A stretch of 64,000 nucleotides of DNA, from the NCBI GenBank assembly GCA_043812455.1, contig JBDRMB010000039.1, forward strand, positions 12,736 to 76,735, read 5' to 3'. Positions 20,338-64,000 of the stretch are shown one piece after another. This DNA is from an archaeon. Lineage in GTDB: Archaea > Nanobdellota > Nanobdellia > Woesearchaeales > GW2011-AR9. The notes under the pieces are model-generated. The model saw nothing but the letters and a program-made list of their open reading frames with translations. It did no database searches and was not told where the DNA came from. Position numbers and translations under genes: made by a program. Numbering within the stretch: position 1 is the stretch's first letter; each line of letters begins with the position of its first letter.

Positions 20338-20502
20338 TAAGATTAATTTATAGAATTTTTTAGAAGTGTAAATTTATAATTTTAACTTAGAAGGTTATTC
20401 TATTTTGAGCGAATGTTATTGGTTAATTTTGTCCTTTATTAATTTTTATCTACTGGTGACGAGATATGTTTTTATATTGGAAGTTGAGTTACTGTATTTT
20501 TG

Positions 20503-50622: not shown

Positions 50623-51060
50623 ATGGTAAACAAAAAATTAAAATTAGGATTAGTTGCTGCTGGCACTATAACTGTCTTAGCAGCAGGAGCTTATGGCGCA
50701 GTTAAAGGCGGACAAAAAGTTCTTGAAGTAGGTCAAGATATAGTTTATCAATCTGAACTTGAAAATGAAGTTGATAGTTTAAAAAAAGACATTAGCCAAC
50801 TTTATGAAAGTTCGGAAGCAAATCAAGAATACTTAACTAATCTTGATCAAAAGATAAGCAATTCTGAAGAAAATATGTTAGCTCGTGTTGATGGCATTGA
50901 GAGTGGAATGCAAAATGTACAATACAATGTTTCAAATATTGAAGAAGTTCTAACTACAGAAAATGTTAACCATTGTTTAGAGTTTGGAGAATTTGGTGCA
51001 GTTTGTTTAAGCAGTTCTTACATTGATGGAGATAACGTCATTGAAAGAAGAGTTGACTAA
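50623..51060 (+). CDS. Small bitopic membrane protein: N-terminal TM plus coiled coil plus C-terminal Cys pair
   Basis: LKLGLVAAGTITVLAAGAYGAV (TM), a heptad-like ELENEVDSLKKDISQLYES..LDQKISNSEENMLARVDGIESGMQNVQYNVSNIEEVL, then C..C (HCLEFGEFGAVC). Confidence 0.6.
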   Translation: MVNKKLKLGLVAAGTITVLAAGAYGAVKGGQKVLEVGQDIVYQSELENEVDSLKKDISQLYESSEANQEYLTNLDQKISNSEENMLARVDGIESGMQNVQYNVSNIEEVLTTENVNHCLEFGEFGAVCLSSSYIDGDNVIERRVD

Positions 51061-51194
51061 AATGAAACATTTCCATAAACAAATATTATTATTACCATCC
51101 AAAACAAGAACAGGAACAATGTTTGGTGTTTGTAAGAGAATTATGATCAGATCAACAACCTTTCTAGAAGATAACAGAAATATGGCAATTTAAG

Positions 51195-51227
51195 GTTGTT
51201 GTACTTATTACTACACTTGTTTAAATC
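51195..51227 (+). promoter_or_regulatory. Promoter motif copy B (GTTGTT-N6-ATTACTACACTT-N-TTTAAATC)
   Basis: 28/33 ungapped identity with copy C. The TATA-like TTTAAAT is at 51220..51226. It lies about 170 nt upstream of the ATG at 51396. Confidence 0.55.
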
Positions 51228-51395
51228 GTTAATGAGTGTTAATAATGATAAAAAGCTAGATTGAAGTTTTCATAGTTGCCAAAGATCAAGTAATGTGGTG
51301 AAATTCCTACCACTCCCGCAGTGGCAGCCCATTAACTTGGTCGGATAAATTTATTGAAAACTTCTTCTAGCAATTATAATTTGGAGGATTATAAA

Positions 51396-51875
51396 ATGGA
51401 ATTAGTTAAAAATTTAGGCTTGATGGGTGTAGGTGTTGTTATAGGATTAGGAGCGGGATATTTTTTATTCAACGAAAATGTACCAGAAGCAGAAATTGAA
51501 ATCGTCGAACCTAATTTACTCAATTGTAGAGATGTTTACAATGAAAATTTAGCACAACTTGAAGATAAGTATAACCATATTCCTTCTGGAAGCTCCGCAA
51601 CACCAAATGATATTGGTATTGATTACATTATATCAGAAGAAGCTAATTTTAGGGGATTAGTAGTTACAGACAAAGAAACTGGAGAACAGTTGGCAATATC
51701 GTGTAAAAATTCTTTTGGTAATAGAGAAATTGGTCTTGGAAGATATAAAGAAATTACTTTCCTCTTAGGTTCTGCTTATGATGGTAGTTCCATCAAGCCG
51801 GGGCTGGTTGATTATCAATGTTTACAGGATAGTTCTAAATTGGAAGATGTAGTTGATAATGGAAAGAAAAATTAA
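51396..51875 (+). CDS. Small bitopic membrane protein with a Cys-containing ectodomain
   Basis: I prefer ATG at 51396 (GGAGG 8 nt upstream) over the track's TTG at 51354. The TM is LGLMGVGVVIGLGAGYFLF. Three Cys residues (NCRD, SCKN, QCLQ). Confidence 0.6.
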   Translation: MELVKNLGLMGVGVVIGLGAGYFLFNENVPEAEIEIVEPNLLNCRDVYNENLAQLEDKYNHIPSGSSATPNDIGIDYIISEEANFRGLVVTDKETGEQLAISCKNSFGNREIGLGRYKEITFLLGSAYDGSSIKPGLVDYQCLQDSSKLEDVVDNGKKN

Positions 51876-51909
51876 TTATTTCTCCAGTATTTAATTTTTA
51901 TCCTTTTCT

Positions 51910-51942
51910 GTTGTTACACTGATTACTACACTTCTTTATATC
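51910..51942 (+). promoter_or_regulatory. Promoter motif copy C (GTTGTT-N6-ATTACTACACTT-N-TTTATATC)
   Basis: 28/33 identity with copy B at identical internal spacing. The TATA-like TTTATAT is at 51935..51941, about 66 nt before the ATG at 52008, which has a GGAGG SD. Confidence 0.55.
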
Positions 51943-52007
51943 TTTTTTACCACATTAAGAATATGGAATTTCAAAATTAAACGAATATTAACGGAGGAAA
52001 AATACAA

Positions 52008-53450
52008 ATGGTACAACCAAAATATAATCCAAAAATTGACCCTAACATTTTTGATGAGGGATTTGATAACGACTATGGTTTAGATGACAAATTACTTGAC
52101 GATAATCTGAATAAACCATTAGAAGAATATGATTTAGGAAATAAAAAGAGTTCTGCTCAAGGAGAAAGTTTAGAAGGAAATTCATCTTCAAGTCGAGAAC
52201 CAAGACAAGATTACATGGCTATGAGTAGAGGGGAAAGTATTGATAATGTTATTGAGGAACAAGATATTGACAATGACGCTGAACGAAGAGCTGGAAGAAA
52301 AGCAGCGCAAGAAGAAGCTATGATGTATGGTAGTTTAGAAGAAAGTGGTGATGATAACAATTACGGTTCAACAAAAGAAAGGATTAGTGATCTGAAAAAA
52401 AGTGCATATGCACATTTAACTTCAGTTGACACTTCAAACATGACCCACAAACAAAGGGATAGGAATTTGAAATGGGTTGAGTTCAAAAACAGTTTATTTG
52501 AAACCGTTAGTAAAATTGCTGGATATGATGTTGTTGATTCAAAAATAGGTAAAGAAATTGAACACATAAACGAAAAAGTATCTAACTTAGAAAATAAAAT
52601 GTATCAACGAGAGATGAGGTTATATGGAAGAGCATTATCAAAAGGAAACAATAACATTTTATTTGGAGAACACACTGAGCAAGATAAAAATTTAGAAAGA
52701 CTAAAACAGAAACCACAATTCTCTGGACTGAAAGATTATGAACTTAAAAAAGTTGGAGGAAGTTATGTATCTAAAGGTCTTAAAAAAGAATTGTTTGAAG
52801 TTAAAAAACAAAAGAGATTTGTAATTAAAAATATTCTTAAGTTAAGACAAATGATTAATGAAGGACATACAAATATAGCTGATTATAAATCTAAAATGAG
52901 GCATATTGCTGGAGATACTAGATCTCTTTTAGATGATGGACTTAGCCAGGAACTGGATGAATACAGTGCTCTAAGTAGTAAAGCTGAAGAAGATCTGCAC
53001 ATGGCAAATTCAATGTATAATCAAGAGAAAGTACGGCTTAAAAGTTTGAAAGTTAGAGAAAAAAGTATTGAGGATAATGTTTATGGTTTAGAAATTGAAA
53101 TTATGGACATGAGAGAAATGGTTAATGCTGGTAGAATAATCTACGAGAATCTAAAGATCAATGCTGAATACGGAAATTTAGATAGTACATTAAAAATTTT
53201 AGAAGACACTAGCGATCTTAAATCAACAATTGAAAAGCTTGCCGTTCTTGATGCTGACATGAAAAATGAGGTAAGATCAATCAGAAATGATATGTACCAA
53301 AATAACAATAATAACGGAATTGGTCTTTCTCTTGATGTAATTAATCATTCTTCAGCCCAAAATAGACAATCTTTGGAAGAACGAAAATTAAGAGAACAAG
53401 AGCAGATTGATGGAGAAGTTGCTGAATTTCTTGAAGACCTAATTAATTAG
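52008..53450 (+). CDS. Hypothetical cytoplasmic coiled-coil protein (480 aa): acidic disordered N-terminus, amphipathic acidic C-terminus
   Basis: No TM. The N-terminal 130 aa are D/E/N/S-rich. Long helical heptad-like stretches run from about residue 180. The C-terminus is QIDGEVAEFLEDLIN. Confidence 0.65.
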   Translation: MVQPKYNPKIDPNIFDEGFDNDYGLDDKLLDDNLNKPLEEYDLGNKKSSAQGESLEGNSSSSREPRQDYMAMSRGESIDNVIEEQDIDNDAERRAGRKAAQEEAMMYGSLEESGDDNNYGSTKERISDLKKSAYAHLTSVDTSNMTHKQRDRNLKWVEFKNSLFETVSKIAGYDVVDSKIGKEIEHINEKVSNLENKMYQREMRLYGRALSKGNNNILFGEHTEQDKNLERLKQKPQFSGLKDYELKKVGGSYVSKGLKKELFEVKKQKRFVIKNILKLRQMINEGHTNIADYKSKMRHIAGDTRSLLDDGLSQELDEYSALSSKAEEDLHMANSMYNQEKVRLKSLKVREKSIEDNVYGLEIEIMDMREMVNAGRIIYENLKINAEYGNLDSTLKILEDTSDLKSTIEKLAVLDADMKNEVRSIRNDMYQNNNNNGIGLSLDVINHSSAQNRQSLEERKLREQEQIDGEVAEFLEDLIN

Positions 53451-53472
53451 GTCTTATTTTTCTTTTTTAAAA

Positions 53473-55065
53473 ATGGTGCTAGAAAAAATCATTGTAGAAG
53501 AAGACATTGTAAAAAATTATTATTCCAATAAAATTAACTATGAAACGCTATTGAGATATTTAGATAGTACGATTGAGGTCAACTTACCTAAAAGTAATCT
53601 TGGAGATTTGGTAGAAAAGTACAACATACTATTTCTTGGCACTTCACATCTTATAGAAACTGAACTAAAAAACTATGAAGAAAGTAAAACAATTAGCAAC
53701 AACATAAAATTATTATACACTACGTTAATTGCATCACAAGTAGTTTTGAAAGAAATTGAAGATTCTGTTGGTAATGCTGGAAATAATGTTATGATAAGAT
53801 CACAGCAAGAATACCAAGAGATTGATATCAGTTTAAGTAGAAATAATGAAGAAATGAATAAAGCATTTCTAAAAGGCATGGTTGATTCATTAATAAATTC
53901 CAAACCTGCCGGATTAAGAATTATTAAAAATTACTTGAATCAATATTCAAAAAAGGCAAGTAATGTAATTAATAATAATTTAAACAAAGACCAAGCAGAA
54001 ATATTAAAAGAAATTTCTTGGAAGTATAATTTTCACACAATTAGTGGAAACTTCAAAAGTAAAGAGGAATTAAATAAACGGAATGATCAAAAAAAAGGAA
54101 TTCAAAATTCTGACCCATTACTTAAAGGTCTTAAAGATTATATTTTAGAAGAACCGGTTTCAAGACAAGATATAGTAGGAAACGAGGATATTATTGATTT
54201 GATTGAAACGGAAGTTGCTTGTTTAATGCATTATGACCCTGTTGATAAAAGTAACTTATATCAAGGATTTAATCAATTTGTCATGCTTGCTGGTCGTCGT
54301 GGTACTGGTAAAACAATGATGGCAATGTATGGCTTGACCATTGGAAAATCACTTTCTGACAAATATAACAAAGATTTATCAATAATTGAACTTGATTTTG
54401 AGGACAGATGGCAATGTGGACCTGAATTAAACATTAGAGCGCAGTTAGAAGAAGTTAGTAAAAGTAACAAACCTTACATCGTATTTATTGATGAAATTGA
54501 TACTAAAATACCTACACGTACAGAATCAGGAAAAGATTCACAAAAAGCAGTAATTGGAGAAATTTTGAAATTTAGAGGTGGTGTTTACCTTAATAAAAAT
54601 AACTATTTAGTTTTAGCTACAACAAACAGACCAAATGATGTAGATATAGCTTTAAGAAATAAATTTGAGATCCTAGAAGTTCCTGGTCCTAAAAATGGGA
54701 AAGAAAGAACTGAAATTCTTTACAAACGTATGCAAAAAGGAATTGAAAGGGGCTATGTTCAGATTAATGATTGGTCTAATATCAAAAATATTCTTGAGAA
54801 ATACCTATTTACGGGAAGAGATTTAGTTAATATTTCTTCCCGAGCAGAAAGGAAGTTTAGAAAAAGCGCTAAGAGATTCAGATGCGACCATACAACTACG
54901 GAAGGTAAACAAGTTGTTCAACAGATTATTCAAAGTTCTGATTATGATTATATTACTACTGACAAAGATCTTATATCCTCAATAATGTATGAAGTACAAA
55001 AGGAAAAAATTGAACAAACTGATTTTTTGAAACAAGACAGGTACATTCGAAATGTCACTAATTAG
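53473..55065 (+). CDS. Classical-clade AAA ATPase with an about 270-aa helical N-terminal domain (Vps4/meiotic-clade-like SRH)
   Basis: DIVGNEDIIDLIETEV, Walker A GRRGTGKT, Walker B PYIVFIDEIDT, and LVLATTNRPNDVDIALRNKFEILEVPGP. Confidence 0.8.
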   Translation: MVLEKIIVEEDIVKNYYSNKINYETLLRYLDSTIEVNLPKSNLGDLVEKYNILFLGTSHLIETELKNYEESKTISNNIKLLYTTLIASQVVLKEIEDSVGNAGNNVMIRSQQEYQEIDISLSRNNEEMNKAFLKGMVDSLINSKPAGLRIIKNYLNQYSKKASNVINNNLNKDQAEILKEISWKYNFHTISGNFKSKEELNKRNDQKKGIQNSDPLLKGLKDYILEEPVSRQDIVGNEDIIDLIETEVACLMHYDPVDKSNLYQGFNQFVMLAGRRGTGKTMMAMYGLTIGKSLSDKYNKDLSIIELDFEDRWQCGPELNIRAQLEEVSKSNKPYIVFIDEIDTKIPTRTESGKDSQKAVIGEILKFRGGVYLNKNNYLVLATTNRPNDVDIALRNKFEILEVPGPKNGKERTEILYKRMQKGIERGYVQINDWSNIKNILEKYLFTGRDLVNISSRAERKFRKSAKRFRCDHTTTEGKQVVQQIIQSSDYDYITTDKDLISSIMYEVQKEKIEQTDFLKQDRYIRNVTN

Positions 55066-55124
55066 TGCTGTAAAAAAGGAAAAGGAAAAACTATTGAAAG
55101 AACTCTATGGGCGGGTGAGATAAA

Positions 55125-56843
55125 ATGGCTAAGGAAAAGAAAAGAAGAATGTTTTTGGAAAAGGACGATTTTCAAAGTGATATCTTCAAAGGTCTTTATG
55201 ATAAGTATTTTGGATATCTTGTTCCTGACGAACCTGTTGAAGAAAAACAGGATAATAATAATAATAATAATGATGATGATGATGATAATTATCATAGAAA
55301 CTATCAAAATAGAAATTTAAGAGATGATAAAAGCAAAAAAGTTGAAACACGAAAAGTTCCTGAATTGGATGATTTATTATATGAAAATGAAAGAGAAAAA
55401 GAAGTTAAGGTTATTGAACTTTTTCCTGGAAAAAAAGAAAGTAAATTAAAACTTGATGAAGGATTAAGTAAAGAAAATATTTTTGATGAATTTGATGCTG
55501 AAGTATCAGAAGATTTCCGGAAAGATTCGTTACAACAAAAGGTATCAGAACCACAAATTGTTTCTAAACAATATTTGCTAAATGATATTTTTTCAGAATT
55601 ATTACAGTATTATAAAGCCAATGATGTTAATAATAATGAAAGTATACCTGTCCTTGAAGAAGATGCTAATTGTTTACTAGCAACAGTAGCGGCTGCTTCA
55701 AAACATTCATTATTGATTGAAGGGAAAGCTCGAACTGGTAAATCATTAATCCTAGATCAAATGACTGAATTGTTAACTTCAGTATATTCAATAAAAAATT
55801 GTTCAAACAAATCATTTTTTGGAAGTGCTGATGAAATCAACAAAAATGATTTTTTGTACATTTCAGAATTTCAATCGGCAGTTCAAGGTAATCCCGTAGT
55901 AAAAGAAATTCTTAAGATGGTCACTGAGAATAAAGATGCAACTCATGATAGTAAAGGGATGAGAACAACCCTTTGTGGAAATTTAACTGTGTTAAGTACC
56001 GGCGCTGATGAGAACATATTGACCCAAAAAAGAGATGTTGAAGTTTCAGGCAGATTCATAATTTTAAAGACAAGATCTGACTTAGAAAAAACTAAAAAAA
56101 TTTGTGATTATCAAGACGGGCTGAAAGATGGGACTATTGAAGATGTTATGTTTTCAAAAGATAGGTTTGATAATCTAAAAAATCATATCAACCAAACTGT
56201 TGAAGAAAAGGGGTTTCGTTCAGAAAATCCGTTCATCAGATCATTCTCAGAAAATCTACCACAAACACAAAAATCTGTATATTATAGAACTTTATATCAC
56301 TCATTAATTGACGCTTTTACTAAGTTTGACAGGCAAAACAGGTTAAAGAAAGAAAATGGTAAGTTTCTGACTAACATTATTGATATTTATCTTGTCAACA
56401 CATTATATCATAAAACTTATTGCCAAACATTGAAACGGTTAGCAGCAATGAGTTATGAGGCTATTGAAAGAACGTTAAGTGAAGTAGAAAAAGAAGATCA
56501 GAAAAAAGAATACGAGCAAGAGATTTCATTAATAGAAGAAGTTGAAAATAAAAATACTAACTGGCAGAAGATATGGAACGGTGCTTATGAACATATGGCA
56601 AAGAACAATCCTCAACTGCTTAACCAGTGGGTAGCTTCTCAGTCTAAAGAAGGGAAAATTATAGTTTATAATCCTGTGAAAAAAGTTGATGTGTATTTGT
56701 GCGAAGCTGAACCAATCTCTATAAAAGAATATTCAGAGGTTGATAAGGTAAATACAAACTCTTTGGAATCTGAAGAACTTAATCGTTATGAAATAATTAC
56801 AGATCCAAGAAGGTTACTGCCCGAACCAAAAATTATAAATTGA
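55125..56843 (+). CDS. Uncharacterised P-loop NTPase (572 aa)
   Basis: Walker A LLIEGKARTGKS, candidate Walker B DFLYISEF, LTVLSTGAD, and VSGRFIILKT. Low-complexity N-terminus (NNNNNNDDDDDN). Helical C-terminal half. Confidence 0.65.
   Translation: MAKEKKRRMFLEKDDFQSDIFKGLYDKYFGYLVPDEPVEEKQDNNNNNNDDDDDNYHRNYQNRNLRDDKSKKVETRKVPELDDLLYENEREKEVKVIELFPGKKESKLKLDEGLSKENIFDEFDAEVSEDFRKDSLQQKVSEPQIVSKQYLLNDIFSELLQYYKANDVNNNESIPVLEEDANCLLATVAAASKHSLLIEGKARTGKSLILDQMTELLTSVYSIKNCSNKSFFGSADEINKNDFLYISEFQSAVQGNPVVKEILKMVTENKDATHDSKGMRTTLCGNLTVLSTGADENILTQKRDVEVSGRFIILKTRSDLEKTKKICDYQDGLKDGTIEDVMFSKDRFDNLKNHINQTVEEKGFRSENPFIRSFSENLPQTQKSVYYRTLYHSLIDAFTKFDRQNRLKKENGKFLTNIIDIYLVNTLYHKTYCQTLKRLAAMSYEAIERTLSEVEKEDQKKEYEQEISLIEEVENKNTNWQKIWNGAYEHMAKNNPQLLNQWVASQSKEGKIIVYNPVKKVDVYLCEAEPISIKEYSEVDKVNTNSLESEELNRYEIITDPRRLLPEPKIIN
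55251..55289 (+). repeat. In-frame trinucleotide microsatellite GAT(AAT)6(GAT)5AAT
   Basis: Read directly from the sequence; it encodes DNNNNNNDDDDDN in ORF 55125..56843. Confidence 0.9.
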
Positions 56844-56858
56844 TGAGGTTTTTAAAAA

Positions 56859-58535
56859 ATGATAAGAAATCAGAGATTATATGATAGATTTGAAGATAAA
56901 ATTAATGAAGAAATTAATATTGCAGTAAATCCTTCTTCAATCCCCTTGCCTTTTTCTTTAGAAAAAATTTTGCCCTTAATGTATAATTCTAAAGAAAAAG
57001 TTCATGAACTACAATCTGAATTAAGTAATAACAAAAGTTATTCTTTAGAAAATATCTGTGAAATTCACAATTTTTTACAGCCTTTAGAGAATAACATCCA
57101 TAATATAATAAATTCTGGCCAAGAATCATATTTACTCCTAATTGCAAAAGTGATTGATATTGGAGATAAGTTTGATCGCATAATCGAAAATAAGTTTAGA
57201 GAATTAGAAGTATCTTTTGATAAAAACAAAAACTCAAATTCTAACAAAAATAAAAGATTAAGTTTGGTTTTTGACCAATATATTACCTTAGATAAAATTA
57301 GCCAAAAAAGAGATTTAACTTTTCTACCACCTCCAAAAATTAAACAGAAATTTGATGGTTATAAAAAAAGAATTGAAGAATTTAAAAGAGTTGATATTGA
57401 TATCAAGAAATTAATTGATGGATATCAAAACCTTAAAACCCCGGAAGAGATAAAAAAATATGTAAATGATAAATCTGAAGATTTGAAAAGTCATGGAATT
57501 ACTTTTAATAACAATCTAATACAAAGAGCTATTAATTTGCAATATCGGGAAGCTATAAGCGTTCTTGAAGATTTGAGAAATGATTTTAAGAACACTAGTG
57601 ATAAAGCAGAAAATTTTATTGCTTACAGAGCTCGTATATCTTCTGACATTAGAAAAATTAAAGCATATAAAGATAAAATTGATTCTCTAGAAGTTGATAA
57701 ATTAAATCTTTTTGATAAATTGATAATCGCTAAGAACCTGGAAAATCTTGATTCAAAAAAGTATAATTCTGCTAGAAGAAATTTGTTTCTTTCCGGAAGT
57801 ATTGATTTATATGGACAAAATGTCAAAGAATTGAAAGACTCTGGTAAATATTTGTTAACGAAAGATTTTCTTAGAAAAATTGATAATTACGGAATTCAAC
57901 TAAAGAATAGTTCTTTAGATAGTTCTTTAGATAATTCAAAAGAAAAAGAAATTTATCAAACTATTTCTGTCATTGATGAGAAGATAAAATCTTTTGAAGA
58001 TTTTGTTAAAGCGGGAATTAGATATAATAATGATGATGATTCAGAACAGTTAGAAAAATATGGCGAAGAGTTTAGTGAATTTTACAGAAAAGCAGAAGAG
58101 TTAAATCTGAGTAAGGTATGCACTTACCTTACTGGAACTAAAAAAGTTTTAGATTTTTATCTGAAAAGATGTATGCCTGAAATTGATAAAATACTGGAAG
58201 AAAATTATGAATTTAGTTCAGATGAAGAGTTAGGCCACAATAACTGTGATAAGATACATGAAAAATTTAAGCAGTTATATGAAGGGAAAATAAAGATTGG
58301 TTCTAAAGAAGACTTATTCAATATGACATATAAATCCCGCAATATTGTAACTGATAGAAAATTAGCTGATATATGTTCAACTATTTCTGGTTTTTATGGA
58401 GATGAAAGAGTTTTCAAAGGTTCAATGGAGATTAGGGTTGAAGAAACCAAAAGACATTTTCCTTTGGAAGGGCTGGAAAATGGAGATTTAGTTCTTTACA
58501 ATTCTATTGTAGAAGCTGTCGATTGTTTGTTTTGA
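56859..58535 (+). CDS. Hypothetical large helical protein (558 aa), Asn/Lys-rich
   Basis: Long ORF starting 15 nt after the previous gene, with GAGGT upstream. No TM and no recognisable motif. Confidence 0.6.
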   Translation: MIRNQRLYDRFEDKINEEINIAVNPSSIPLPFSLEKILPLMYNSKEKVHELQSELSNNKSYSLENICEIHNFLQPLENNIHNIINSGQESYLLLIAKVIDIGDKFDRIIENKFRELEVSFDKNKNSNSNKNKRLSLVFDQYITLDKISQKRDLTFLPPPKIKQKFDGYKKRIEEFKRVDIDIKKLIDGYQNLKTPEEIKKYVNDKSEDLKSHGITFNNNLIQRAINLQYREAISVLEDLRNDFKNTSDKAENFIAYRARISSDIRKIKAYKDKIDSLEVDKLNLFDKLIIAKNLENLDSKKYNSARRNLFLSGSIDLYGQNVKELKDSGKYLLTKDFLRKIDNYGIQLKNSSLDSSLDNSKEKEIYQTISVIDEKIKSFEDFVKAGIRYNNDDDSEQLEKYGEEFSEFYRKAEELNLSKVCTYLTGTKKVLDFYLKRCMPEIDKILEENYEFSSDEELGHNNCDKIHEKFKQLYEGKIKIGSKEDLFNMTYKSRNIVTDRKLADICSTISGFYGDERVFKGSMEIRVEETKRHFPLEGLENGDLVLYNSIVEAVDCLF

Positions 58536-58551
58536 TTTTTAATATCAAAAA

Positions 58552-60756
58552 TTACTGGTTAACCCAACCACAAGACCCTTTCTTTTTAATTGATGAAATT
58601 TTATTACCATTAGGACAATTACAATTATACAACAAGTCACCATCATCTTCCAAAAAATAAACTCCTTTATCATTATCACCTTTACAACGAATGTTATTTT
58701 CATTATCAAAATAAAAATTATTTATAATATTTAAACCAAACTCAGGATGTAAACTATATAATCTTTCTCTTAAGAAATAATCATGTGATGGCTTAAAAAC
58801 TTCCCAATGTGTAGAACTATCTTTTAGAATATTATAATAATCAGAGCCATTGATATCCTTATCATGAAATGTTAAATTATTATTTCTATCAATTTTGTAC
58901 ACACCAGAACTCCCATCATCATAATTCATTATATTTCCATCTTTATTCAAATAAAAATCTTCTATAACAACATCTGCTAACCTAGGATGCAAATTATGAA
59001 TTTGTTTCCTTAATTCAATTTCTGCTGGAGTTGGTTCTTGGGATGGCAGTTCTAGAGACTTTTGCTCAGGATCAATTTCAACATTATAATTACTGGTTTC
59101 TTGTGTGATTTCTTCTTGGCCAGTATTGTTAATAAGTTGTTTTGGAATCACTTCTTCTGTCTTTTGATCATCAAACAATTCACCCTTATGTTCTACCATA
59201 TATTTTGTTACAAAGCCCCCAGATATTATCCCTGTAGCAACTGTTGTTAAAAGAGCTATTGTTTTCCAGTCAAATATTAGAGTGAATTCCTTAACAGCAC
59301 TTATTTTCTGTTGTAATCCCCATATTGCAGATTCTATTCCTTCCTCACAGAAATTATATACTCTTCTCCCCTGGTTACTTATTCCATTGAAACAATCGTT
59401 AATTAATATTTTTGCATAATTCTTCTTACTTATCTCTTTTTCAGAAATTATTTTTTCTCTTAACCAATCAAGTGAAAAATCTTGTTTTTCAATTTGACCA
59501 ATATTTTTTTTTGTATTTTGTGGTAAAGGAAAATTATTTATTTGGTTAGAATAAAAAAGTATTTCTTCACCACAATTATAATTAGGTAATTTTATGATAT
59601 AATTTTTAATTTCATCAGGAATTTGGGGTCCATCACTACCAAAGATACTAATTTCTTGTGGTGATGGGTCTGTAGTGACTTCCAATTCAAGATTAATTTC
59701 CTTTAAATCGTCAATAAAGTCTTGAGCTTCCTGATAACGTTCATCTTTCCCAGAAGTTCCTTTGATGATAATATCTACTAATTTTTCAGCATTTTCATCA
59801 GAATAATTTTTATCATCTTTTCTATCACCATCTAATGATTCTAATAAAGATTCCCTTAAGTGATTTAAATCTTTTTTATTTTGCACTTCTTTTGCTTTAT
59901 TTATCCAATACTGGCTTAATCTTCCAGTAAGCATCAGACATAAATTATTTGCCATGAAATAAGTGTCAATTGAAGGTTCTGCTTTTTCGTATGATTCAAT
60001 ATCTGGAGAAGAGTAGATAACATTAAAAATACCTCTATTTCCAGAAGTATAATATGTGTTTGATACAGGTCCTGCAACAGATTTATTAAATAAGTGCCTG
60101 ATATCTTCACCTTTAGATCTTGCAATGCCAAAATCGTTCACGAGGAATATGTTTCTATCTATCACTATTATATTCGCTGGAGAAAGATCTCCATGTATAA
60201 TACCTGAACAAATTGGCGTCTTAAAATTGTGAAAGAATTTTACTTGTTTAAGAATACTTTCTGTTAAATTGACTACTTTATCTAATTTTAATATCTTATA
60301 ATTATTTGCTTTAATTTCCTCTGGTTTCACATTATTCCTTTTCGAATAATCGGGTAATTCAATAATTTCTTCAAGAGTTTGGAAATAAGCATGACCTCTT
60401 GATAAATCTTTAAATAATAAACCCATTCTTCCATCAATCTCCATTGAACCTAAATATTCTCTTTTCCCAAATTCAGCAAGGATTTGGTTATGATCCATTT
60501 TAGATGAATATTCTTTGATAGTATCCTCTACTGACATTTCATTTAAAAGGAGAGTTATAGAAGTAGGTCCTGGACATGTTATATTGTTGCTATGAGTTTT
60601 CCAAAACATTCTTTCTCTTCCTAGTTCAATAAAAAATCTACTAGATAAGCTACCTACACTTCTTCCTTCGGATAGGATGTGTACTTCTCTTCCATCTCTT
60701 GTAACTTTTTTCACTGAATTATAATCTTTTTTCCTTGACATTACAATGCCCCCCAC
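58552..60756 (-). CDS. Transmembrane Hanks-type Ser/Thr protein kinase with a duplicated extracellular C-terminal module
   Basis: Catalytic loop IIHGDLSPANIIV, then NDFGIARS, then SIDTYFMANNLCLMLTG. TM is WKTIALLTTVATGIISGGFV. The ectodomain repeats are LHPRLADVVIEDFYLNKDGNI..GVYKIDRNNNL and LHPEFGLNIINNFYFDNENNI..GVYFLEDDGDL. The start is GTG at 60756 or ATG at 60741 (TAATG overlap). Confidence 0.8.
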   Translation of the reverse strand: MGGIVMSRKKDYNSVKKVTRDGREVHILSEGRSVGSLSSRFFIELGRERMFWKTHSNNITCPGPTSITLLLNEMSVEDTIKEYSSKMDHNQILAEFGKREYLGSMEIDGRMGLLFKDLSRGHAYFQTLEEIIELPDYSKRNNVKPEEIKANNYKILKLDKVVNLTESILKQVKFFHNFKTPICSGIIHGDLSPANIIVIDRNIFLVNDFGIARSKGEDIRHLFNKSVAGPVSNTYYTSGNRGIFNVIYSSPDIESYEKAEPSIDTYFMANNLCLMLTGRLSQYWINKAKEVQNKKDLNHLRESLLESLDGDRKDDKNYSDENAEKLVDIIIKGTSGKDERYQEAQDFIDDLKEINLELEVTTDPSPQEISIFGSDGPQIPDEIKNYIIKLPNYNCGEEILFYSNQINNFPLPQNTKKNIGQIEKQDFSLDWLREKIISEKEISKKNYAKILINDCFNGISNQGRRVYNFCEEGIESAIWGLQQKISAVKEFTLIFDWKTIALLTTVATGIISGGFVTKYMVEHKGELFDDQKTEEVIPKQLINNTGQEEITQETSNYNVEIDPEQKSLELPSQEPTPAEIELRKQIHNLHPRLADVVIEDFYLNKDGNIMNYDDGSSGVYKIDRNNNLTFHDKDINGSDYYNILKDSSTHWEVFKPSHDYFLRERLYSLHPEFGLNIINNFYFDNENNIRCKGDNDKGVYFLEDDGDLLYNCNCPNGNKISSIKKKGSCGWVNQ

Positions 60757-61907
60757 CCATTATCATTTAGTAAGAATTCATACAAAGAATCGGATGCAGA
60801 ATTGTCATCGTCTGTTGGATATTCTGTTGGTGTTTCTGAATCTCTTCCTATTTCTGATCCTTCAGGTTTAGGTTGTACTAATTGATCACCAACAGAACTA
60901 GATTTATCTATACACTTAATATTAACATCACCATCATTTTTACAAAGTAGATTTTCATTAATTGCTGGCCTTGAATAACCGTCAGCCATTCTAACTGTTA
61001 CTCCATCAATCGTATCTCTTTTAGTAACTAAACAACCATAATCTGTGGCATTTTCACTATAACCCTGATTAACCAAGTTATTGATAGCATCCATAAATTT
61101 AGAACTATCAGCATTACCACAAAGATTAGAAGTTGCGTAGTTTTTTATAGTTGTGGGATTTGAATCTGATGATGATGTATTATTACTTTGATCATTTAAT
61201 ATTGACTCTCCAACTGAATCAATGGAAATATTAGGATCAGTCATAAAATCATTTGTTTGATTAGTAGAATAATTATCAGAACCAACATTATCAATTAAAT
61301 GAGGCAATTTATTTGAAGGGGGGTTTATGATAATCTTGTGATGAACACTATCATCCCATTGAAAACAGTGTAATCTAAATTCTAAATTAATAGGCTCATT
61401 AATTGCAGGAGTATTTAAAAAATCATATATGTTGAATGATTTTTCATAAATACCTTCATCAAAGAAAATAATCTTTTCTTCTCCATCCTTACCATCAATC
61501 GAATAATCTAAAATGCAAGATTCAATATTTTCACTTATTCTAATTTTAAATTCGTGGTTTTCATTGTTTTTATCATAATGTATTGACTCTGATCCTTCAA
61601 AATCATAATTAACCTTTTCTATAATTTCATTATTAACATGATTTGATTCAACATTATTTGAATCTTTACAAAAATAATAACTTAGAAGACTTCCTGAAAT
61701 CAGACTTAATAACGCGATTCCAAATCCGGAAATTGCTGCTTTTTTTTCCCCAATAGAATTTGTTTCTAACTCATCAAATCTGGCTTTGACATTGTTTCTC
61801 TGATTAATTATAGTATTTACATCTTTTCTAAGATTTCTAACTTCCTCTTCAGAAAATAATATTAATTTTTCAGATTTTTTTGGATTTTCCCGTTCAGTCA
61901 TATTCAT
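60741..61907 (-). CDS. Bitopic membrane protein: cytoplasmic coiled coil, TM, ectodomain carrying the Cys domain shared with ORF 47297..48946
   Basis: TM is AAISGFGIALLSLISGSLLSYYF. CGNADSSKFMDAINNLVNQGYS..DGVTVRMADGYSRPA matches the 549-aa protein. Confidence 0.65.
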   Translation of the reverse strand: MNMTERENPKKSEKLILFSEEEVRNLRKDVNTIINQRNNVKARFDELETNSIGEKKAAISGFGIALLSLISGSLLSYYFCKDSNNVESNHVNNEIIEKVNYDFEGSESIHYDKNNENHEFKIRISENIESCILDYSIDGKDGEEKIIFFDEGIYEKSFNIYDFLNTPAINEPINLEFRLHCFQWDDSVHHKIIINPPSNKLPHLIDNVGSDNYSTNQTNDFMTDPNISIDSVGESILNDQSNNTSSSDSNPTTIKNYATSNLCGNADSSKFMDAINNLVNQGYSENATDYGCLVTKRDTIDGVTVRMADGYSRPAINENLLCKNDGDVNIKCIDKSSSVGDQLVQPKPEGSEIGRDSETPTEYPTDDDNSASDSLYEFLLNDNGWGAL

Positions 61908-61931
61908 TACTCACTAAATAGATTAAATTAA

Positions 61932-63953
61932 TTAAGGCATAAATCTTTTATATTTTGACCATTGGTTATTTTTATCATTTTCAATGTCATTGAATAATGC
62001 TTCTTTGTCTTTAGATGAAGTAACGTACTCTATAAATTCTTCAGATTCATCTATGGTTGTTGTGATCTCTCTTTCATTTTCCTCAACTGCTTGTACTAAA
62101 TCACTATTTTGTGCATTATTTTGTAGCGAATCTCTTAACTGTTCATTTTCTGATTCTAAACTTAGCTTTTGTTCATTTTCATTTTGTAATTCAGAATATA
62201 GTTTTTTTATTTCTAATTCCTTTTCTTGTAATTGTTTGTCTTTTTCTTCACAATCAATTTCATACTGAGAATTTTTTTTGCTTAATCTCTCAATTAAATT
62301 TTTTGCTTCAAACAAATTATTGCTATTCTTATTTTTTACATTTTCTAATTCAGTTTCTAAATAAATTATCTTTTTGTTATTATCTGTGCGTGTTTCTGAT
62401 AATCTATTTTTTTCAATAACAAAATTTTCAATAACGGAATTCAAATCATCAATTATTATATTATATCCTTTACACAATTTATCAACTTCTGAATATTCTC
62501 TTTCTTTATTAGAAAGCTTTTCTTCAAAATCTACCCTTTTTTGCTTTTCAGAATCTAATTCTATAGCAAAATTTTCAATTACAGAATTCAAATCATCAAT
62601 TATTATACTATATCCTTTACACAATTTATCAACTTCTGAATATTCTCTTTCTTTATTAGAAAGCTTTTCTTCAAAATCTACCTTTTTTTGCTTTTCAGAA
62701 TCTAATTCTATAGCTAATTTCTCAAGTTCTTTTTTTTTTGTTTTATTTAAATTAAAAATTTTGTTTAACCAACTATTCTCAGATTCATTACATCTTTTTT
62801 CTAATGATTCATATTTGTTATTTAAGTGGTTGATTTTTTTATGCATCTCATCAACCTCATTTTGATATTGTTTAATTTCTTCTTTTTTATTATTAAGAAC
62901 TTCAATTATCTCTTCTTTTTCATCAAATAAAATACTTAACTTTGATTCTAACTCAGAATTTGCTTTATGTAAGTAATCTTTTTCTTTTTGTAAATTAGGT
63001 ATCTTTTTAACTTCTTTCTCTAATTCGGGGATTTTGTTGTCTTTTAAATCCTTTATTTCTATAATATTTTTTTTAACTGAATCTTCTAAATCAATAAACA
63101 TTATTGTAGTGTCGTCATACTTCAATCTTCTTAAATCAATATTTTCTAACAATTGGTCATCATTTCTTTTTATATAAGAATCTAAGGCATCATCAACTAA
63201 TTCTTCAATTGATTGATAATCGTTTTGATGTAAGGAGGTTCTTAAAAGGATTTTTCTTTTTAATTCATCAATAGAACCTATCTCTAACATTTTTTTTCTT
63301 GGGAGGTTAATCTCGTCTTCTATCTCTCTTAACTTTCCAAAATAATTTAAGGACTTATCTAACAAAATACTGTTTAGATGTTCTTTACTTATTCTAGAAT
63401 CAACACCATCAGAATGTATCATAATAAAGGATGGTTTTTCTTCGCTAAAATCAAATTCACGATAATTTATCCTTTCTTCAATTTCCCTACCATCAATATC
63501 ATCAACTCCAACATAATTTGTAGGTCCATAACTCCCTTTACTTTCATTTTTTACAACATCATCAACTATTTTATCATCATAAACAAAAATAATACTACAA
63601 TCGCCTAAATGACCAACATAAGCTCTATTCTCTCTAACTATTAATAATGATAAAGTCGAATGTGCTGAACCTAGATTTGCTAAAGGGGTATTAACTTTAA
63701 CTATCGCATCTCTAATTATGGATTGATAATCTTTTATTTCTTCGTTCTTTAATCTAAATTCTAATTCATCACCAACCTTATTAACAATCATGTGGCTTGC
63801 GATACTTCCTCTTTCCATATCATCGCTACATCCATCTGCTACCATAAATAATCCACAATCTTTGCCGTTGATATCTTTAATTATAGAGTTATAATGTGAA
63901 TCTTCATTATAATCATGGGTTCTTCCCGGTTTTTCAGTAACATAAGCTTCCAT
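61932..63953 (-). CDS. PP2C-family Ser/Thr phosphatase fused to an about 430-aa coiled coil
   Basis: NEDSHY, LFMVADGCSDDMERGSIAS, YVGHLGDCSII, FIMIHSDGV, YDDTTIMFIDL. After these come continuous heptad-like E/K/L/N-rich sequence that includes a 49-aa tandem duplication. Confidence 0.8.
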   Translation of the reverse strand: MEAYVTEKPGRTHDYNEDSHYNSIIKDINGKDCGLFMVADGCSDDMERGSIASHMIVNKVGDELEFRLKNEEIKDYQSIIRDAIVKVNTPLANLGSAHSTLSLLIVRENRAYVGHLGDCSIIFVYDDKIVDDVVKNESKGSYGPTNYVGVDDIDGREIEERINYREFDFSEEKPSFIMIHSDGVDSRISKEHLNSILLDKSLNYFGKLREIEDEINLPRKKMLEIGSIDELKRKILLRTSLHQNDYQSIEELVDDALDSYIKRNDDQLLENIDLRRLKYDDTTIMFIDLEDSVKKNIIEIKDLKDNKIPELEKEVKKIPNLQKEKDYLHKANSELESKLSILFDEKEEIIEVLNNKKEEIKQYQNEVDEMHKKINHLNNKYESLEKRCNESENSWLNKIFNLNKTKKKELEKLAIELDSEKQKKVDFEEKLSNKEREYSEVDKLCKGYSIIIDDLNSVIENFAIELDSEKQKRVDFEEKLSNKEREYSEVDKLCKGYNIIIDDLNSVIENFVIEKNRLSETRTDNNKKIIYLETELENVKNKNSNNLFEAKNLIERLSKKNSQYEIDCEEKDKQLQEKELEIKKLYSELQNENEQKLSLESENEQLRDSLQNNAQNSDLVQAVEENEREITTTIDESEEFIEYVTSSKDKEALFNDIENDKNNQWSKYKRFMP
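62421..62714 (-). repeat. Near-perfect 147-bp tandem duplication (2 copies) inside the PP2C coiled-coil region
   Basis: 62421..62567 versus 62568..62714 differ at about 4 positions. Each copy encodes AIELDSEKQK(K/R)VDFEEKLSNKEREYSEVDKLCKGY(S/N)IIIDDLNSVIENF. Confidence 0.9.
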
Positions 63954-64000
63954 TTTTAATTAACCTCTGCCTTGATATATTGCGCTAATCCTATGGGGTA

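What the first reader, a model, noticed from the sequence alone, without database searches (positions are those of the whole stretch)
58552..63953. Operon of a PP2C-coiled-coil fusion, a membrane adaptor and a receptor-like Ser/Thr kinase
Three minus-strand genes are tightly linked, with a 24-nt gap and then a 1-16 nt overlap. The first is a PP2C phosphatase fused to about 430 residues of continuous coiled coil, an unusual architecture reminiscent of a tether or ruler. The second is a bitopic protein whose ectodomain carries a Cys domain also present in the secreted 549-aa protein of the adhesin operon. The third is a kinase with catalytic loop HGDLSPAN (rather than HRDLKPxN) and a DFG motif. 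The kinase also has a TM helix and an ectodomain built from two copies of an about 65-aa module (LHP...(D/N)F(Y)(L/F)(N/D)..(G/N)NI....GVY). The shared ectodomain links signalling directly to the adhesin operon. I could not find a convincing glycine-rich loop or VAIK lysine by eye, so it may be an atypical kinase or a pseudokinase.
Basis: partly seen in the sequence, partly recalled or inferred. Interest (0 to 1): 0.6.

Follow-up and report, generated by a model that had tools for sequence, protein, structure and literature searches.

The report
Archaeal receptor kinase–PP2C–membrane partner module
The three genes are a real membrane Ser/Thr kinase, its phosphatase and a membrane partner protein, but they are only the tail of a larger, rare and so far undescribed signalling gene cluster that keeps its gene order in a few tiny (DPANN/Woesearchaeota) archaea.

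Summary
All three minus-strand ORFs exist with the stated spacing.

- **PP2C:** it is a true PP2C with every metal-binding Asp conserved, and it is the only PP2C in this 1.14-Mb genome. Its coiled-coil tail is about 350-380 aa, not 430.
- **Kinase:** it has a complete Hanks-type fold (AlphaFold pLDDT >90; Foldseek to BAK1/IRAK4/BRI1). K48, D185, N190 and D203 are conserved across a small family of about 31 clusters in 1.8 billion proteins. This argues for an atypical active kinase, not a pseudokinase.
- **Shared and repeated modules:** the Cys domain shared with the 549-aa secreted protein (48% identity) and the two ectodomain repeats are real. Both are species-specific orphans.
- **"Three-gene operon" is incomplete:** four more tightly packed genes lie upstream, beyond the window end. 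They encode a Rossmann-like/WD40 protein, a second kinase, a TPR protein and an unknown 430-aa protein.
- **Wider cluster:** this operon converges, 16 nt apart, on a six-gene AAA-ATPase operon. The PP2C-partner-kinase order recurs in about 10 divergent loci, yet the kinase is found in only 2 of 401 sampled genomes of the order.

Function beyond transmembrane phospho-signalling remains inferred.

The parts
61932..63953 (-). PP2C phosphatase with coiled-coil tail (673 aa); the only PP2C in the genome
   Evidence: Pfam PP2C_2 E=2.4e-12. Ortholog profile vs PDB: tPphA 2j82 E=3e-21, Stp1, PstP, PppA. Single PF13672 hit in the genome.
63081..63953 (-). PP2C catalytic domain (residues 1-291) with a roughly 55-aa helical insert between the SDG and DDTT motifs
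   Evidence: Invariant D18, D40-G41, G117-D118, D182-G183 and D280-D281-T282 in 7 orthologs.
61935..63080 (-). Coiled-coil tail (residues 292-673)
   Evidence: Pro-free from 320 to 672, heptad score high from about 311. Weak hits to SMC/MukB/Taxilin/TACC coiled-coil models.
62421..62714 (-). In-frame 147-bp tandem duplication: 2 x 49 aa (7 heptads each), residues 414-462 and 463-511, 2 aa differences
   Evidence: TRF period 147, 2.1 copies, 94% matches. Protein check.
60741..61907 (-). Bitopic membrane partner (388 aa): short cytoplasmic coiled-coil N-terminus, TM helix, orphan ectodomain
   Evidence: Translation. TM at residues 57-75. No Pfam, NCBIfam or PADLOC hit. A gene of the same architecture sits at the same position in other loci.
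61671..61739 (-). TM helix of the partner protein (residues 57-79)
   Evidence: Hydropathy scan.
60897..61190 (-). Four-Cys extracellular domain (residues 240-337) shared with the 549-aa secreted protein
   Evidence: 48% identity, E=9e-24. Only two copies in the genome. None in 40 relatives. No other holder found in the 5.8-billion-protein set.
48371..48646 (-). Second copy of the Cys domain, in the 549-aa protein (47297..48946) of the neighbouring adhesin-like operon
58552..60741 (-). Receptor-type Hanks Ser/Thr kinase (729 aa from the ATG start): N-terminal kinase, helical juxtamembrane region, TM helix, C-terminal ectodomain
   Evidence: Pkinase E=4e-6, below the cut-off. PknB_PASTA_kin E=3.9e-9. 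Family profile vs PDB: Stk1, StkP, PknB E=5e-16 to 1e-13. AlphaFold plus Foldseek.
59692..60714 (-). Kinase domain (residues 10-350): G30-S-L-S-S-R-F loop, K48, N67-E68, H183-G-D185-L-S-P-A-N190, D203-F-G, D259
   Evidence: pLDDT >90. About 330 aligned columns to BAK1, IRAK4 and BRI1, TM 0.65-0.70. Family conservation. hhalign to the kinase-2 family.
59200..59268 (-). TM helix of the kinase (residues 492-514)
   Evidence: In the three-ortholog alignment (A1) the G001 and G005 orthologs have a TM helix at about the same position.
58564..58992 (-). Two orphan ectodomain repeats of about 63 aa (residues 584-646 and 664-726), each predicted as a helix plus 4-5 strands at low confidence
   Evidence: 30% identity, E=3e-9. 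Secondary structure. No Pfam hit. No other copy in the genome.
63960..64000 (-). 3' end of the upstream 430-aa gene. The operon continues beyond the window with a TPR protein, kinase 2 and an 804-aa Rossmann-like + WD40 protein.
   Evidence: TPR. Kinase-2 residues. WD40-like propeller.
50623..58535 (+). Convergent six-gene arm: two small TM proteins, a 480-aa coiled-coil protein, a 530-aa classic AAA ATPase, a 572-aa P-loop NTPase and a 558-aa helical protein. Its last stop is 16 nt from the kinase stop.
   Evidence: This arm is syntenic with the kinase in 10 loci.

Best explanation
The three genes are the distal end of a translationally coupled seven-gene operon. An FAD oxidoreductase gene lies 93 nt further upstream. 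The operon is a transmembrane Ser/Thr phospho-signalling module of rare Woesearchaeota-type (DPANN) archaea.

Shown:
- The last gene is a receptor-type Hanks kinase with an intact but atypical active site. The Gly loop is reduced to one Gly, and Ser replaces the catalytic-loop Lys.
- The PP2C has an intact active site and is the genome's only PP2C.
- The middle gene is a bitopic protein with a cytoplasmic coiled-coil N-terminus and an orphan ectodomain.
- The ectodomains of the kinase and the partner are hypervariable between lineages, while the cytoplasmic parts are conserved.
- In several lineages the partner and the kinase carry the same extracellular Cys-rich module.

Inferred:
- An external cue, most plausibly a surface or host-derived ligand, is read by the kinase and partner ectodomains.
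- The kinase then phosphorylates cytoplasmic operon partners. Candidates are the partner's coiled-coil N-terminus, kinase 2, and the TPR and WD40 scaffold proteins.
- The PP2C, held near the membrane by its coiled-coil tail, resets the signal.
- The output may act on the convergent AAA-ATPase arm that always accompanies the operon.
For: Kinase:
- Complete bilobal fold.
- The closest solved relatives by profile are the bacterial receptor kinases Stk1, StkP and PknB.
- D185, N190, D203 and D259 are invariant, and G30 and K48 are at least 90% conserved, in 31 family members.
- The G loop and K48 align to the canonical GxGxxG and VAIK-Lys of kinase 2.

PP2C:
- All metal-binding motifs are invariant in 7 orthologs.
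- PDB profile E=3e-21.
- It is the only PP2C in the genome.

Linkage:
- Gaps or overlaps are at most 24 nt across seven genes.
- PP2C - 1 to 3 partner genes - kinase in the same order is clear in nine loci: G000, L016, L017, L013, L014, L015, L018, L021 and L024. L023 is a probable tenth.
- The convergent ATPase arm is present in 10 loci.

Receptor character:
- A TM helix lies at about residues 430-600, followed by variable ectodomains such as PD40 propeller and Big_13.
- The partner and the kinase share an extracellular ~70-aa Cys module in the L013, L014, L012 and L016 proteins.
Against: - No enzymatic activity, phosphorylation site or transcript was observed.
- This protein's own Pkinase score (26.8 bits) is below Pfam's cut-off of 31.7.
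- The canonical GxGxxG loop and the catalytic-loop Lys are absent.
- No FHA or other known phospho-reader domain was found in any cluster protein.
- Ligand, substrates and output are unknown.
- The ectodomains modelled poorly, with pLDDT 30-60.
- Physical tethering by the coiled coil is untested, and tail length varies fourfold between orthologs.
Confidence: 0.72

Rival explanations
1. The whole two-arm cluster is an anti-virus or conflict system of the NTPase + kinase + PP2C + TPR/WD40 type, like the ternary and vWA-MoxR systems of Kaur, Burroughs, Iyer and Aravind 2020. In this reading the kinase/PP2C pair sets a threshold for an ATPase-driven response.
For: - Very patchy distribution: 4 of 41 relatives and 2 of 401 genomes of the order.
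- Fast evolution: kinase 30% and PP2C 28% identity within the genus (full-length alignments), against 70% for GluRS.
- TPR, WD40, two NTPases and two kinases are typical parts of such systems.
- The kinases match PD-T4-6 and MADS6 defence-kinase models at E=1e-9 to 1e-11.
Against: - No recognisable effector such as a nuclease, protease, TIR or pore former, and no vWA domain.
- The PADLOC hits are generic kinase-domain matches.
- The sensor domains face outwards, whereas phage sensors are normally cytoplasmic.
- The MoxR-like signal is below the cut-off: Mg_chelatase 19.1 vs 20.3 bits.
Confidence: 0.12
2. The module controls cell division or envelope growth, as PknB/PstP or StkP/PhpP do with bitopic and coiled-coil substrates such as MapZ, DivIVA and GpsB. 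The AAA and coiled-coil arm would be the membrane-remodelling machinery.
For: - The best solved relatives of the kinase are StkP, PknB and Stk1.
- The partner has the MapZ-like layout: cytoplasmic N-terminus, TM helix, extracellular domain.
- The AAA ATPase weakly resembles CdvC/Vps4 and CDC48.
Against: - An essential division system should not be confined to 2 of 401 genomes of the order.
- No PASTA or other wall-binding ectodomain.
- An earlier follow-up of the AAA pair found no support for an ESCRT-III/Vps4 identity (note e1-2855383, not re-tested here).
Confidence: 0.1
3. The receptor 'kinase' is a catalytically dead pseudokinase or scaffold. Real phosphorylation would then be done by the upstream kinase 2, which has a canonical GxGxxG loop.
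For: - The Gly loop is degenerate (G-S-L-S-S-R-F) and Ser replaces the catalytic-loop Lys.
- The Pfam score is below the cut-off and only the C-lobe is matched by sequence models.
Against: - K48, D185, N190 and D203 are kept across a family that is only 20-34% identical overall. That pattern implies selection on catalysis.
- From my own knowledge, the active RIO and Bud32 kinases also lack this Lys (HGDLSEYN, HGDLTTSN).
- In this genome it is kinase 2 that deviates, with Q replacing the catalytic-loop Asn (HHKDLTPEQ) and CDR replacing DFG.
Confidence: 0.1

Closest known systems
Bacterial receptor Hanks kinase / PP2C pairs (PknB-PstP of Mycobacterium, PrkC-PrpC of Bacillus, StkP-PhpP of Streptococcus, Stk1-Stp1 of Staphylococcus)
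   Same: - N-terminal cytoplasmic Hanks kinase, one TM helix, C-terminal sensor ectodomain.
- A cognate PP2C is encoded in the same operon.
- These kinases and phosphatases are the best sequence matches among solved structures.
   Different: - No PASTA ectodomain; the ectodomains are orphan and lineage-specific.
- Degenerate Gly loop and no catalytic-loop Lys.
- The PP2C carries a coiled-coil tail of 100-420 aa.
- One to three bitopic partner genes are always inserted between the phosphatase and the kinase.
- The host is an archaeon, and the pair is embedded in a cluster of about 13 genes with a second kinase and two NTPases.
Threonine phosphorylation pathway of the type VI secretion system (PpkA-PppA-Fha1 with TagR/S/T/Q) in Pseudomonas aeruginosa
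   Same: - A TM Hanks kinase with an ectodomain, a PP2C and accessory membrane proteins are encoded beside an AAA+ ATPase-containing machine that they switch on and off.
- PppA is among the PDB hits of the PP2C profile (6jkv, E=1.5e-5).
   Different: - No FHA protein, no vWA ectodomain and no T6SS structural genes were detected.
- The ATPases are a classic-clade AAA and an unclassified P-loop protein, not ClpV.
Sulfolobus archaellum regulatory network (ArnA FHA, ArnB vWA, kinases ArnC/ArnD/ArnS, PP2A)
   Same: An archaeal Ser/Thr phosphorylation module with several kinases regulating a surface machine (PMC5007285, PMC6509490).
   Different: - No FHA or vWA proteins here.
- The phosphatase is PP2C, not PP2A.
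- No archaellum genes are adjacent.
- Only one archaeal PPM had been characterised by 2016 (PMC5007285).
MapZ/LocZ of Streptococcus pneumoniae (a bitopic substrate of StkP)
   Same: The partner protein has the same layout: cytoplasmic N-terminal region, single TM helix, extracellular C-terminal domain. It is encoded next to the kinase.
   Different: No sequence similarity was found, no phosphorylation has been shown, and the ectodomain is an orphan Cys module.

Membership tests
Hanks-type (eukaryotic-like) Ser/Thr protein kinase | Complete bilobal kinase fold | tested here: met
   AlphaFold residues 10-350 at pLDDT >90. Foldseek to BAK1, RIPK, IRAK4 and BRI1: E about 1e-10, about 330 columns, TM 0.65-0.70 on the target.
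Hanks-type (eukaryotic-like) Ser/Thr protein kinase | Score above the Pfam Pkinase (PF00069) gathering cut-off | tested here: not met
   26.8 bits vs 31.7, C-lobe only. However, 25 of 31 family members match at E<1e-3, best 8.7e-12, and the family profile hits Stk1, StkP and PknB at E=5e-16.
Hanks-type (eukaryotic-like) Ser/Thr protein kinase | Glycine-rich loop GxGxxG | tested here: not met
   Only G30 remains (G-S-L-S-S-R-F). The position was confirmed by hhalign to the canonical loop of kinase 2.
Hanks-type (eukaryotic-like) Ser/Thr protein kinase | VAIK lysine and the alpha-C acidic partner | tested here: met
   K48 is at least 90% conserved and aligns to K55 of kinase 2. N67 is invariant across the family. 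E68 is invariant in the three closest orthologs and is the family consensus. The assignment of E68 as the salt-bridge partner is inferred.
Hanks-type (eukaryotic-like) Ser/Thr protein kinase | Catalytic loop HRDLKPxN: catalytic Asp, Lys and Asn | tested here: inconclusive
   D185 and N190 are invariant. The Lys is replaced by S/T/N/H/Q throughout the family: HxD(I/L)(S/T/N)PxN.
Hanks-type (eukaryotic-like) Ser/Thr protein kinase | DFG aspartate and alpha-F aspartate | tested here: met
   D203 and D259 are invariant in 31 sequences.
Hanks-type (eukaryotic-like) Ser/Thr protein kinase | Phosphotransfer activity | not testable with these tools
   Needs a biochemical assay.
PP2C / PPM metal-dependent Ser/Thr phosphatase | Score above the Pfam PP2C_2 (PF13672) cut-off | tested here: met
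   47.3 bits vs 24, E=2.4e-12. 50.3 bits in the genome scan.
PP2C / PPM metal-dependent Ser/Thr phosphatase | Metal-binding Asp residues of motifs I, II, VIII and XI, plus the GDS motif | tested here: met
   D18, D40-G41, G117-D118, D182-G183 and D280-D281-T282 are invariant in 7 orthologs. The second, GDS and eighth motifs align to VADGMGG, GDSRIY and SDGL of tPphA 2j82.
PASTA-type receptor kinases (PknB/PrkC/StkP) | Extracellular PASTA repeats | tested here: not met
   No Pfam hit in the ectodomain even at E<=10.
T6SS threonine phosphorylation pathway / Arn-type networks | FHA-domain phospho-reader and vWA-domain partner in the cluster | tested here: not met
   No FHA or vWA hit in any of the 13 cluster proteins or their orthologs. 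Remote folds were tested only for the 804-aa protein.
vWA-MoxR / ternary NTPase conflict systems (Kaur et al. 2020) | MoxR-clade AAA+ ATPase plus a vWA protein plus an effector domain | tested here: inconclusive
   Mg_chelatase-like hit of 19.1 bits, below the 20.3 cut-off, in the 572-aa NTPase. No vWA domain, no effector, no PADLOC system model.

The most novel reading that the evidence does not exclude
The two-arm cluster of about 13 genes is an undescribed envelope-associated machine of episymbiotic DPANN archaea.

- A receptor kinase and one to three bitopic co-receptors display fast-swapping surface modules.
- In this species one such module is also carried by a secreted protein of the neighbouring adhesin-like operon. 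This would allow homotypic sensing of the cell's own adhesin or of its engagement with a host.
- Through reversible Thr/Ser phosphorylation (two kinases, one coiled-coil-tethered PP2C, TPR and WD40 phospho-scaffolds) these receptors would switch a dedicated AAA/P-loop ATPase assembly at the membrane.
- The variable-length coiled-coil tail would set the reach of the phosphatase. In this species it was recently lengthened by exactly seven heptads.
Probability: 0.15. Interest if true: 0.8.

Novelty: new variant of a known kind. Interest (0 to 1): 0.55.

Why it matters
- **Little is known about signalling in DPANN archaea.** They have tiny genomes and almost no characterised signalling, and how they sense hosts or surfaces is open.
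- **Archaeal PP2C phosphatases are barely studied.** One enzyme had been characterised by 2016 (PMC5007285). Only 439 of 57,520 PF13672 sequences are archaeal (PMC12088040).
- **The genome invests heavily in this cluster.** A 1.14-Mb genome spends about 2% of its DNA on a conserved kinase/phosphatase/ATPase cluster whose sensor domains face outwards.
- **It gives a concrete, testable entry point.** The parts are a defined receptor kinase family with an unusual active site, its dedicated phosphatase and candidate substrates encoded alongside.
- **The three-gene unit alone is less novel.** Taken by itself it is a recognisable variant of the bacterial PknB/PstP theme.

Tried and rejected
1. **Word-index homolog searches.** Searches with the kinase, with a 3-sequence alignment and with the Cys domain returned only the query itself. 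The exhaustive HMMER scan was needed to find the family.
2. **PDB search with the single PP2C sequence.** It found nothing. A 7-ortholog profile worked.
3. **Coiled-coil transfer between PP2C and partner.** I tested whether the long PP2C coiled coil compensates for a short cytoplasmic coiled coil of the partner, or arose by fusion with a partner paralog. There is no significant similarity between the tails and the partner N-termini. The length correlation is weak (Spearman -0.37, p=0.33, n=9). Rejected.
4. **LDH/MDH-like N-domain of the 804-aa protein** (from earlier notes). A sequence profile against PDB gave nothing. The Foldseek hits of the full model were all taken by the C-terminal WD40-like propeller. 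What is supported is a Rossmann-like alternating strand/helix pattern with the LGIIGKG motif. LDH identity is not confirmed here.
5. **Profile of the 430-aa protein against PDB.** No hits.
6. **Pfam on isolated ectodomain pieces at E<=10.** Nothing.
7. **Bacterial sigma-70 promoter and terminator scan.** Uninformative in this AT-rich archaeon: 103 sites found vs 95 expected.
8. **PADLOC.** Only generic kinase, AAA or PP2C domain hits, and no system.
9. **The search for related loci with the 31-sequence alignment.** It failed for lack of conserved stretches. The 3-sequence alignment gave 4 loci.
10. **The look-up of sequencing runs was closed.** So there was no transcript or copy-number check.

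Full report
**Observation**

- The PP2C-to-partner gap is 24 nt.
- The partner's TAA overlaps the kinase ATG at 60741 by one base (TAATG) and follows a GGTGGGGGG Shine-Dalgarno-like run.
- The database gene call is the 729-aa ATG form.

The genome is a 1.14-Mb, 44-contig, roughly 32% GC assembly. It carries a TrmB regulator. Related loci are labelled Woesearchaeota or 'archaeon' metagenome bins. It is therefore a DPANN-type archaeon.

**PP2C**

- Pfam PP2C_2 is well above its cut-off at 47.3 bits, E=2.4e-12.
- In seven orthologs D18, D40-G41, G117-D118, D182-G183 and D280-D281-T282 are invariant.
- The ortholog profile hits tPphA (E=3e-21), Stp1, PstP and the T6SS phosphatase PppA.
- It is the only PP2C_2 match in the genome.
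- The tail after DDTT is 382 aa. It is Pro-free from residue 320 to 672 and has strong heptad periodicity. So there is about 350-380 aa of coiled coil, not 430.
- Ortholog tails range from 104 to 417 aa. A coiled-coil tail is conserved, but its great length is special to this genus and one other lineage.
- An in-frame 147-bp tandem duplication adds exactly seven heptads. The two 49-aa copies differ at 2 residues.

**Kinase**

This protein alone is borderline by Pfam: 26.8 vs 31.7 bits, with only the C-lobe matched.

An exhaustive HMMER scan of 1.84 billion representative proteins found a small family:
- 31 representatives at E<1e-10 and 15 at E<1e-30.
- 25 of the 31 aligned members match Pkinase.
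- The family profile hits Stk1, StkP and PknB at E=5e-16 to 1e-13.

AlphaFold with this alignment models residues 10-350 at pLDDT >90. Foldseek aligns about 330 columns to whole kinase domains of BAK1, RIPK, IRAK4 and BRI1.

Family-wide conservation:
- Invariant: N67, H171, D185, N190, D203 and D259.
- At least 90% conserved: G30, F46, K48, G180 and H183.

Profile-profile alignment with the upstream kinase-2 family gives probability 91% and E=9e-7. It places G30-S-L-S-S-R-F on the GxGxxG loop and F-W-K48 on VAIK.

The signature HxD(I/L)(S/T/N)PxN, which lacks the catalytic-loop Lys, is a family trait. Conservation of every catalytic residue at 20-34% overall identity argues for an active, atypical kinase.

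Most members have a TM helix at about residues 430-600, followed by unrelated ectodomains such as PD40 propeller and Big_13.

Here the ectodomain holds two orphan 63-aa repeats (E=3e-9). They modelled poorly and have no Pfam match or paralog.

**Partner protein**

- It has a 56-aa cytoplasmic coiled-coil N-terminus, a TM helix at residues 57-75 and an ectodomain of about 310 aa.
- It has no family hits.
- Its four-Cys domain is 48% identical to a domain of the 549-aa secreted protein (E=9e-24).
- That domain occurs only in these two genes. It is absent from 40 relatives. No other holder was found in the 5.8-billion-protein set.
- The adhesin-like operon holding the 549-aa protein is not adjacent to the cluster in other genomes.

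In other loci the same position holds one to three genes of the same architecture.
- Their N-termini share only a weak helix motif.
- Their C-terminal roughly 70-aa Cys module (CG...C...C...GC...CCPP) is homologous to a module in receptor-kinase ectodomains: the L014 kinase (partner and kinase of the same locus), the L016 kinase and, more weakly, the L012 kinase.

Sharing of outward-facing modules between the partner and another surface protein is therefore recurrent, though the partner in that sharing differs between lineages.

**Context**

The PP2C is not the first gene. An ORF ends 6 nt upstream of its ATG.

Beyond the window end the operon continues with gaps or overlaps of no more than 14 nt:
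- a 430-aa protein of unknown fold;
- a 482-aa TPR protein;
- a 524-aa second kinase with canonical G35/G37/G40, K55, D148 and D187;
- an 804-aa protein whose C-terminal half is a WD40-like propeller. Its N-terminal half has a Rossmann-like pattern with the LGIIGKG motif.

An FAD oxidoreductase gene precedes the operon by 93 nt.

The kinase stop lies 16 nt from the stop of a convergent six-gene arm holding a classic AAA ATPase and a P-loop NTPase.

All-against-all comparison shows the same order in the loci recovered from other genomes and metagenomes:
- PP2C-partner-kinase is clear in nine loci, with a probable tenth (L023).
- The convergent arm is present in ten.
- Two loci (L012, L023) lack the convergent arm.

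The cluster is nevertheless rare:
- The kinase was found in 4 of 41 relatives and in 2 of 401 sampled genomes of the order.
- The P-loop NTPase of the other arm was found in 3 of 41 relatives.

It also evolves fast. Within the genus the kinase is 30% and the PP2C 28% identical over their full lengths, against 70% for GluRS.

**Interpretation**

Shown:
- an intact receptor-type Hanks kinase;
- an intact, unique PP2C with a coiled-coil tail;
- a bitopic partner protein;
- tight coupling of the genes and conserved synteny.

Inferred:
- The variable ectodomains read an external, probably surface-borne, cue.
- The kinase phosphorylates cytoplasmic partners encoded in the operon.
- The PP2C resets the signal.
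- The output concerns the accompanying ATPase arm.

No FHA, vWA or effector domain was detected. Membership in the T6SS-TPP, Arn or vWA-MoxR systems is therefore not supported, even though the logic may be similar.

Rivals are a conflict or defence system, division or envelope control, and a pseudokinase scaffold. They are less well supported but not excluded.

Full-text searches found no description of this cluster.

Earlier notes of this scan describe the same operon family in other genomes. I re-derived the synteny independently. I could not confirm the LDH-like assignment in those notes.

**Verdict**

- The three-gene unit is a new variant of the bacterial receptor-kinase/PP2C theme.
- It is embedded in a rare, conserved and undescribed archaeal cluster.
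- Interest is moderate to good.

Noticed in passing
window 62421-62714: Near-perfect in-frame 147-bp tandem duplication inside the PP2C coiled coil. It gives two 49-aa units (7 heptads each) that differ at 2 residues. This implies a recent event or copy-number variation.
   Followed up: partly
window 20500-22041 (+): A single 513-aa ORF fuses the aspartate carbamoyltransferase catalytic domains (OTCace_N, OTCace) with the regulatory chain (PyrI, PyrI_C). These are normally two genes.
   Followed up: no
window 4056-10661 (-): A 2201-aa ORF with no Pfam match at E<=1e-5. The 684-aa open-ended ORF at 1-2052 also has none.
   Followed up: no
L015 5624-7507 and L010 1-1527: In one lineage the ortholog of the unknown 430-aa operon protein carries a C-terminal PG_binding_1 domain (E=5e-13) plus a DUF2092-like region. 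This is unexpected for an apparently cytoplasmic archaeal protein.
   Followed up: no
L006 10998-13412 vs L013 818-3237, L014 788-3152 and L015 539-2837: The Rossmann-like protein and the WD40-like propeller are one fused 804-aa gene in this genome. They are two adjacent, overlapping genes in most other loci.
   Followed up: partly
L016 8374-9971, L018 7975-9958, L012 1-2227, L024 5536-7979: The partner gene is tandemly duplicated in several lineages. The copies keep a 40-80-aa N-terminus at 42-78% identity, and some copies lack the TM helix and ectodomain.
   Followed up: partly
L013 8705-9946, L014 8537-13720, L012 620-2227, L009 2-439, L016 10001-12004: A roughly 70-aa six-Cys module (CG...C...C...GC...CCPP) recurs at the C-terminus of partner proteins and inside receptor-kinase ectodomains of different genomes.
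   Followed up: partly
window 58536-58551: Only 16 nt separate the stop codons of the two convergent operons. Transcription termination signals of both must overlap the opposing coding region.
   Followed up: no
L017 (record CAYWPJ010000011.1): The public record is titled 'uncultured Methanosarcinales archaeon'. Yet the genome is placed in the same family as this DPANN genome and carries the same cluster. The label is probably wrong.
   Followed up: no
G000 contig C29 9657-10415 and C24 21906-22253: The genome has two further Pkinase matches outside the cluster: a 697-aa ORF at 74.6 bits and a 230-aa ORF at 40.8 bits. So there are four kinase-like genes but a single PP2C.
   Followed up: no
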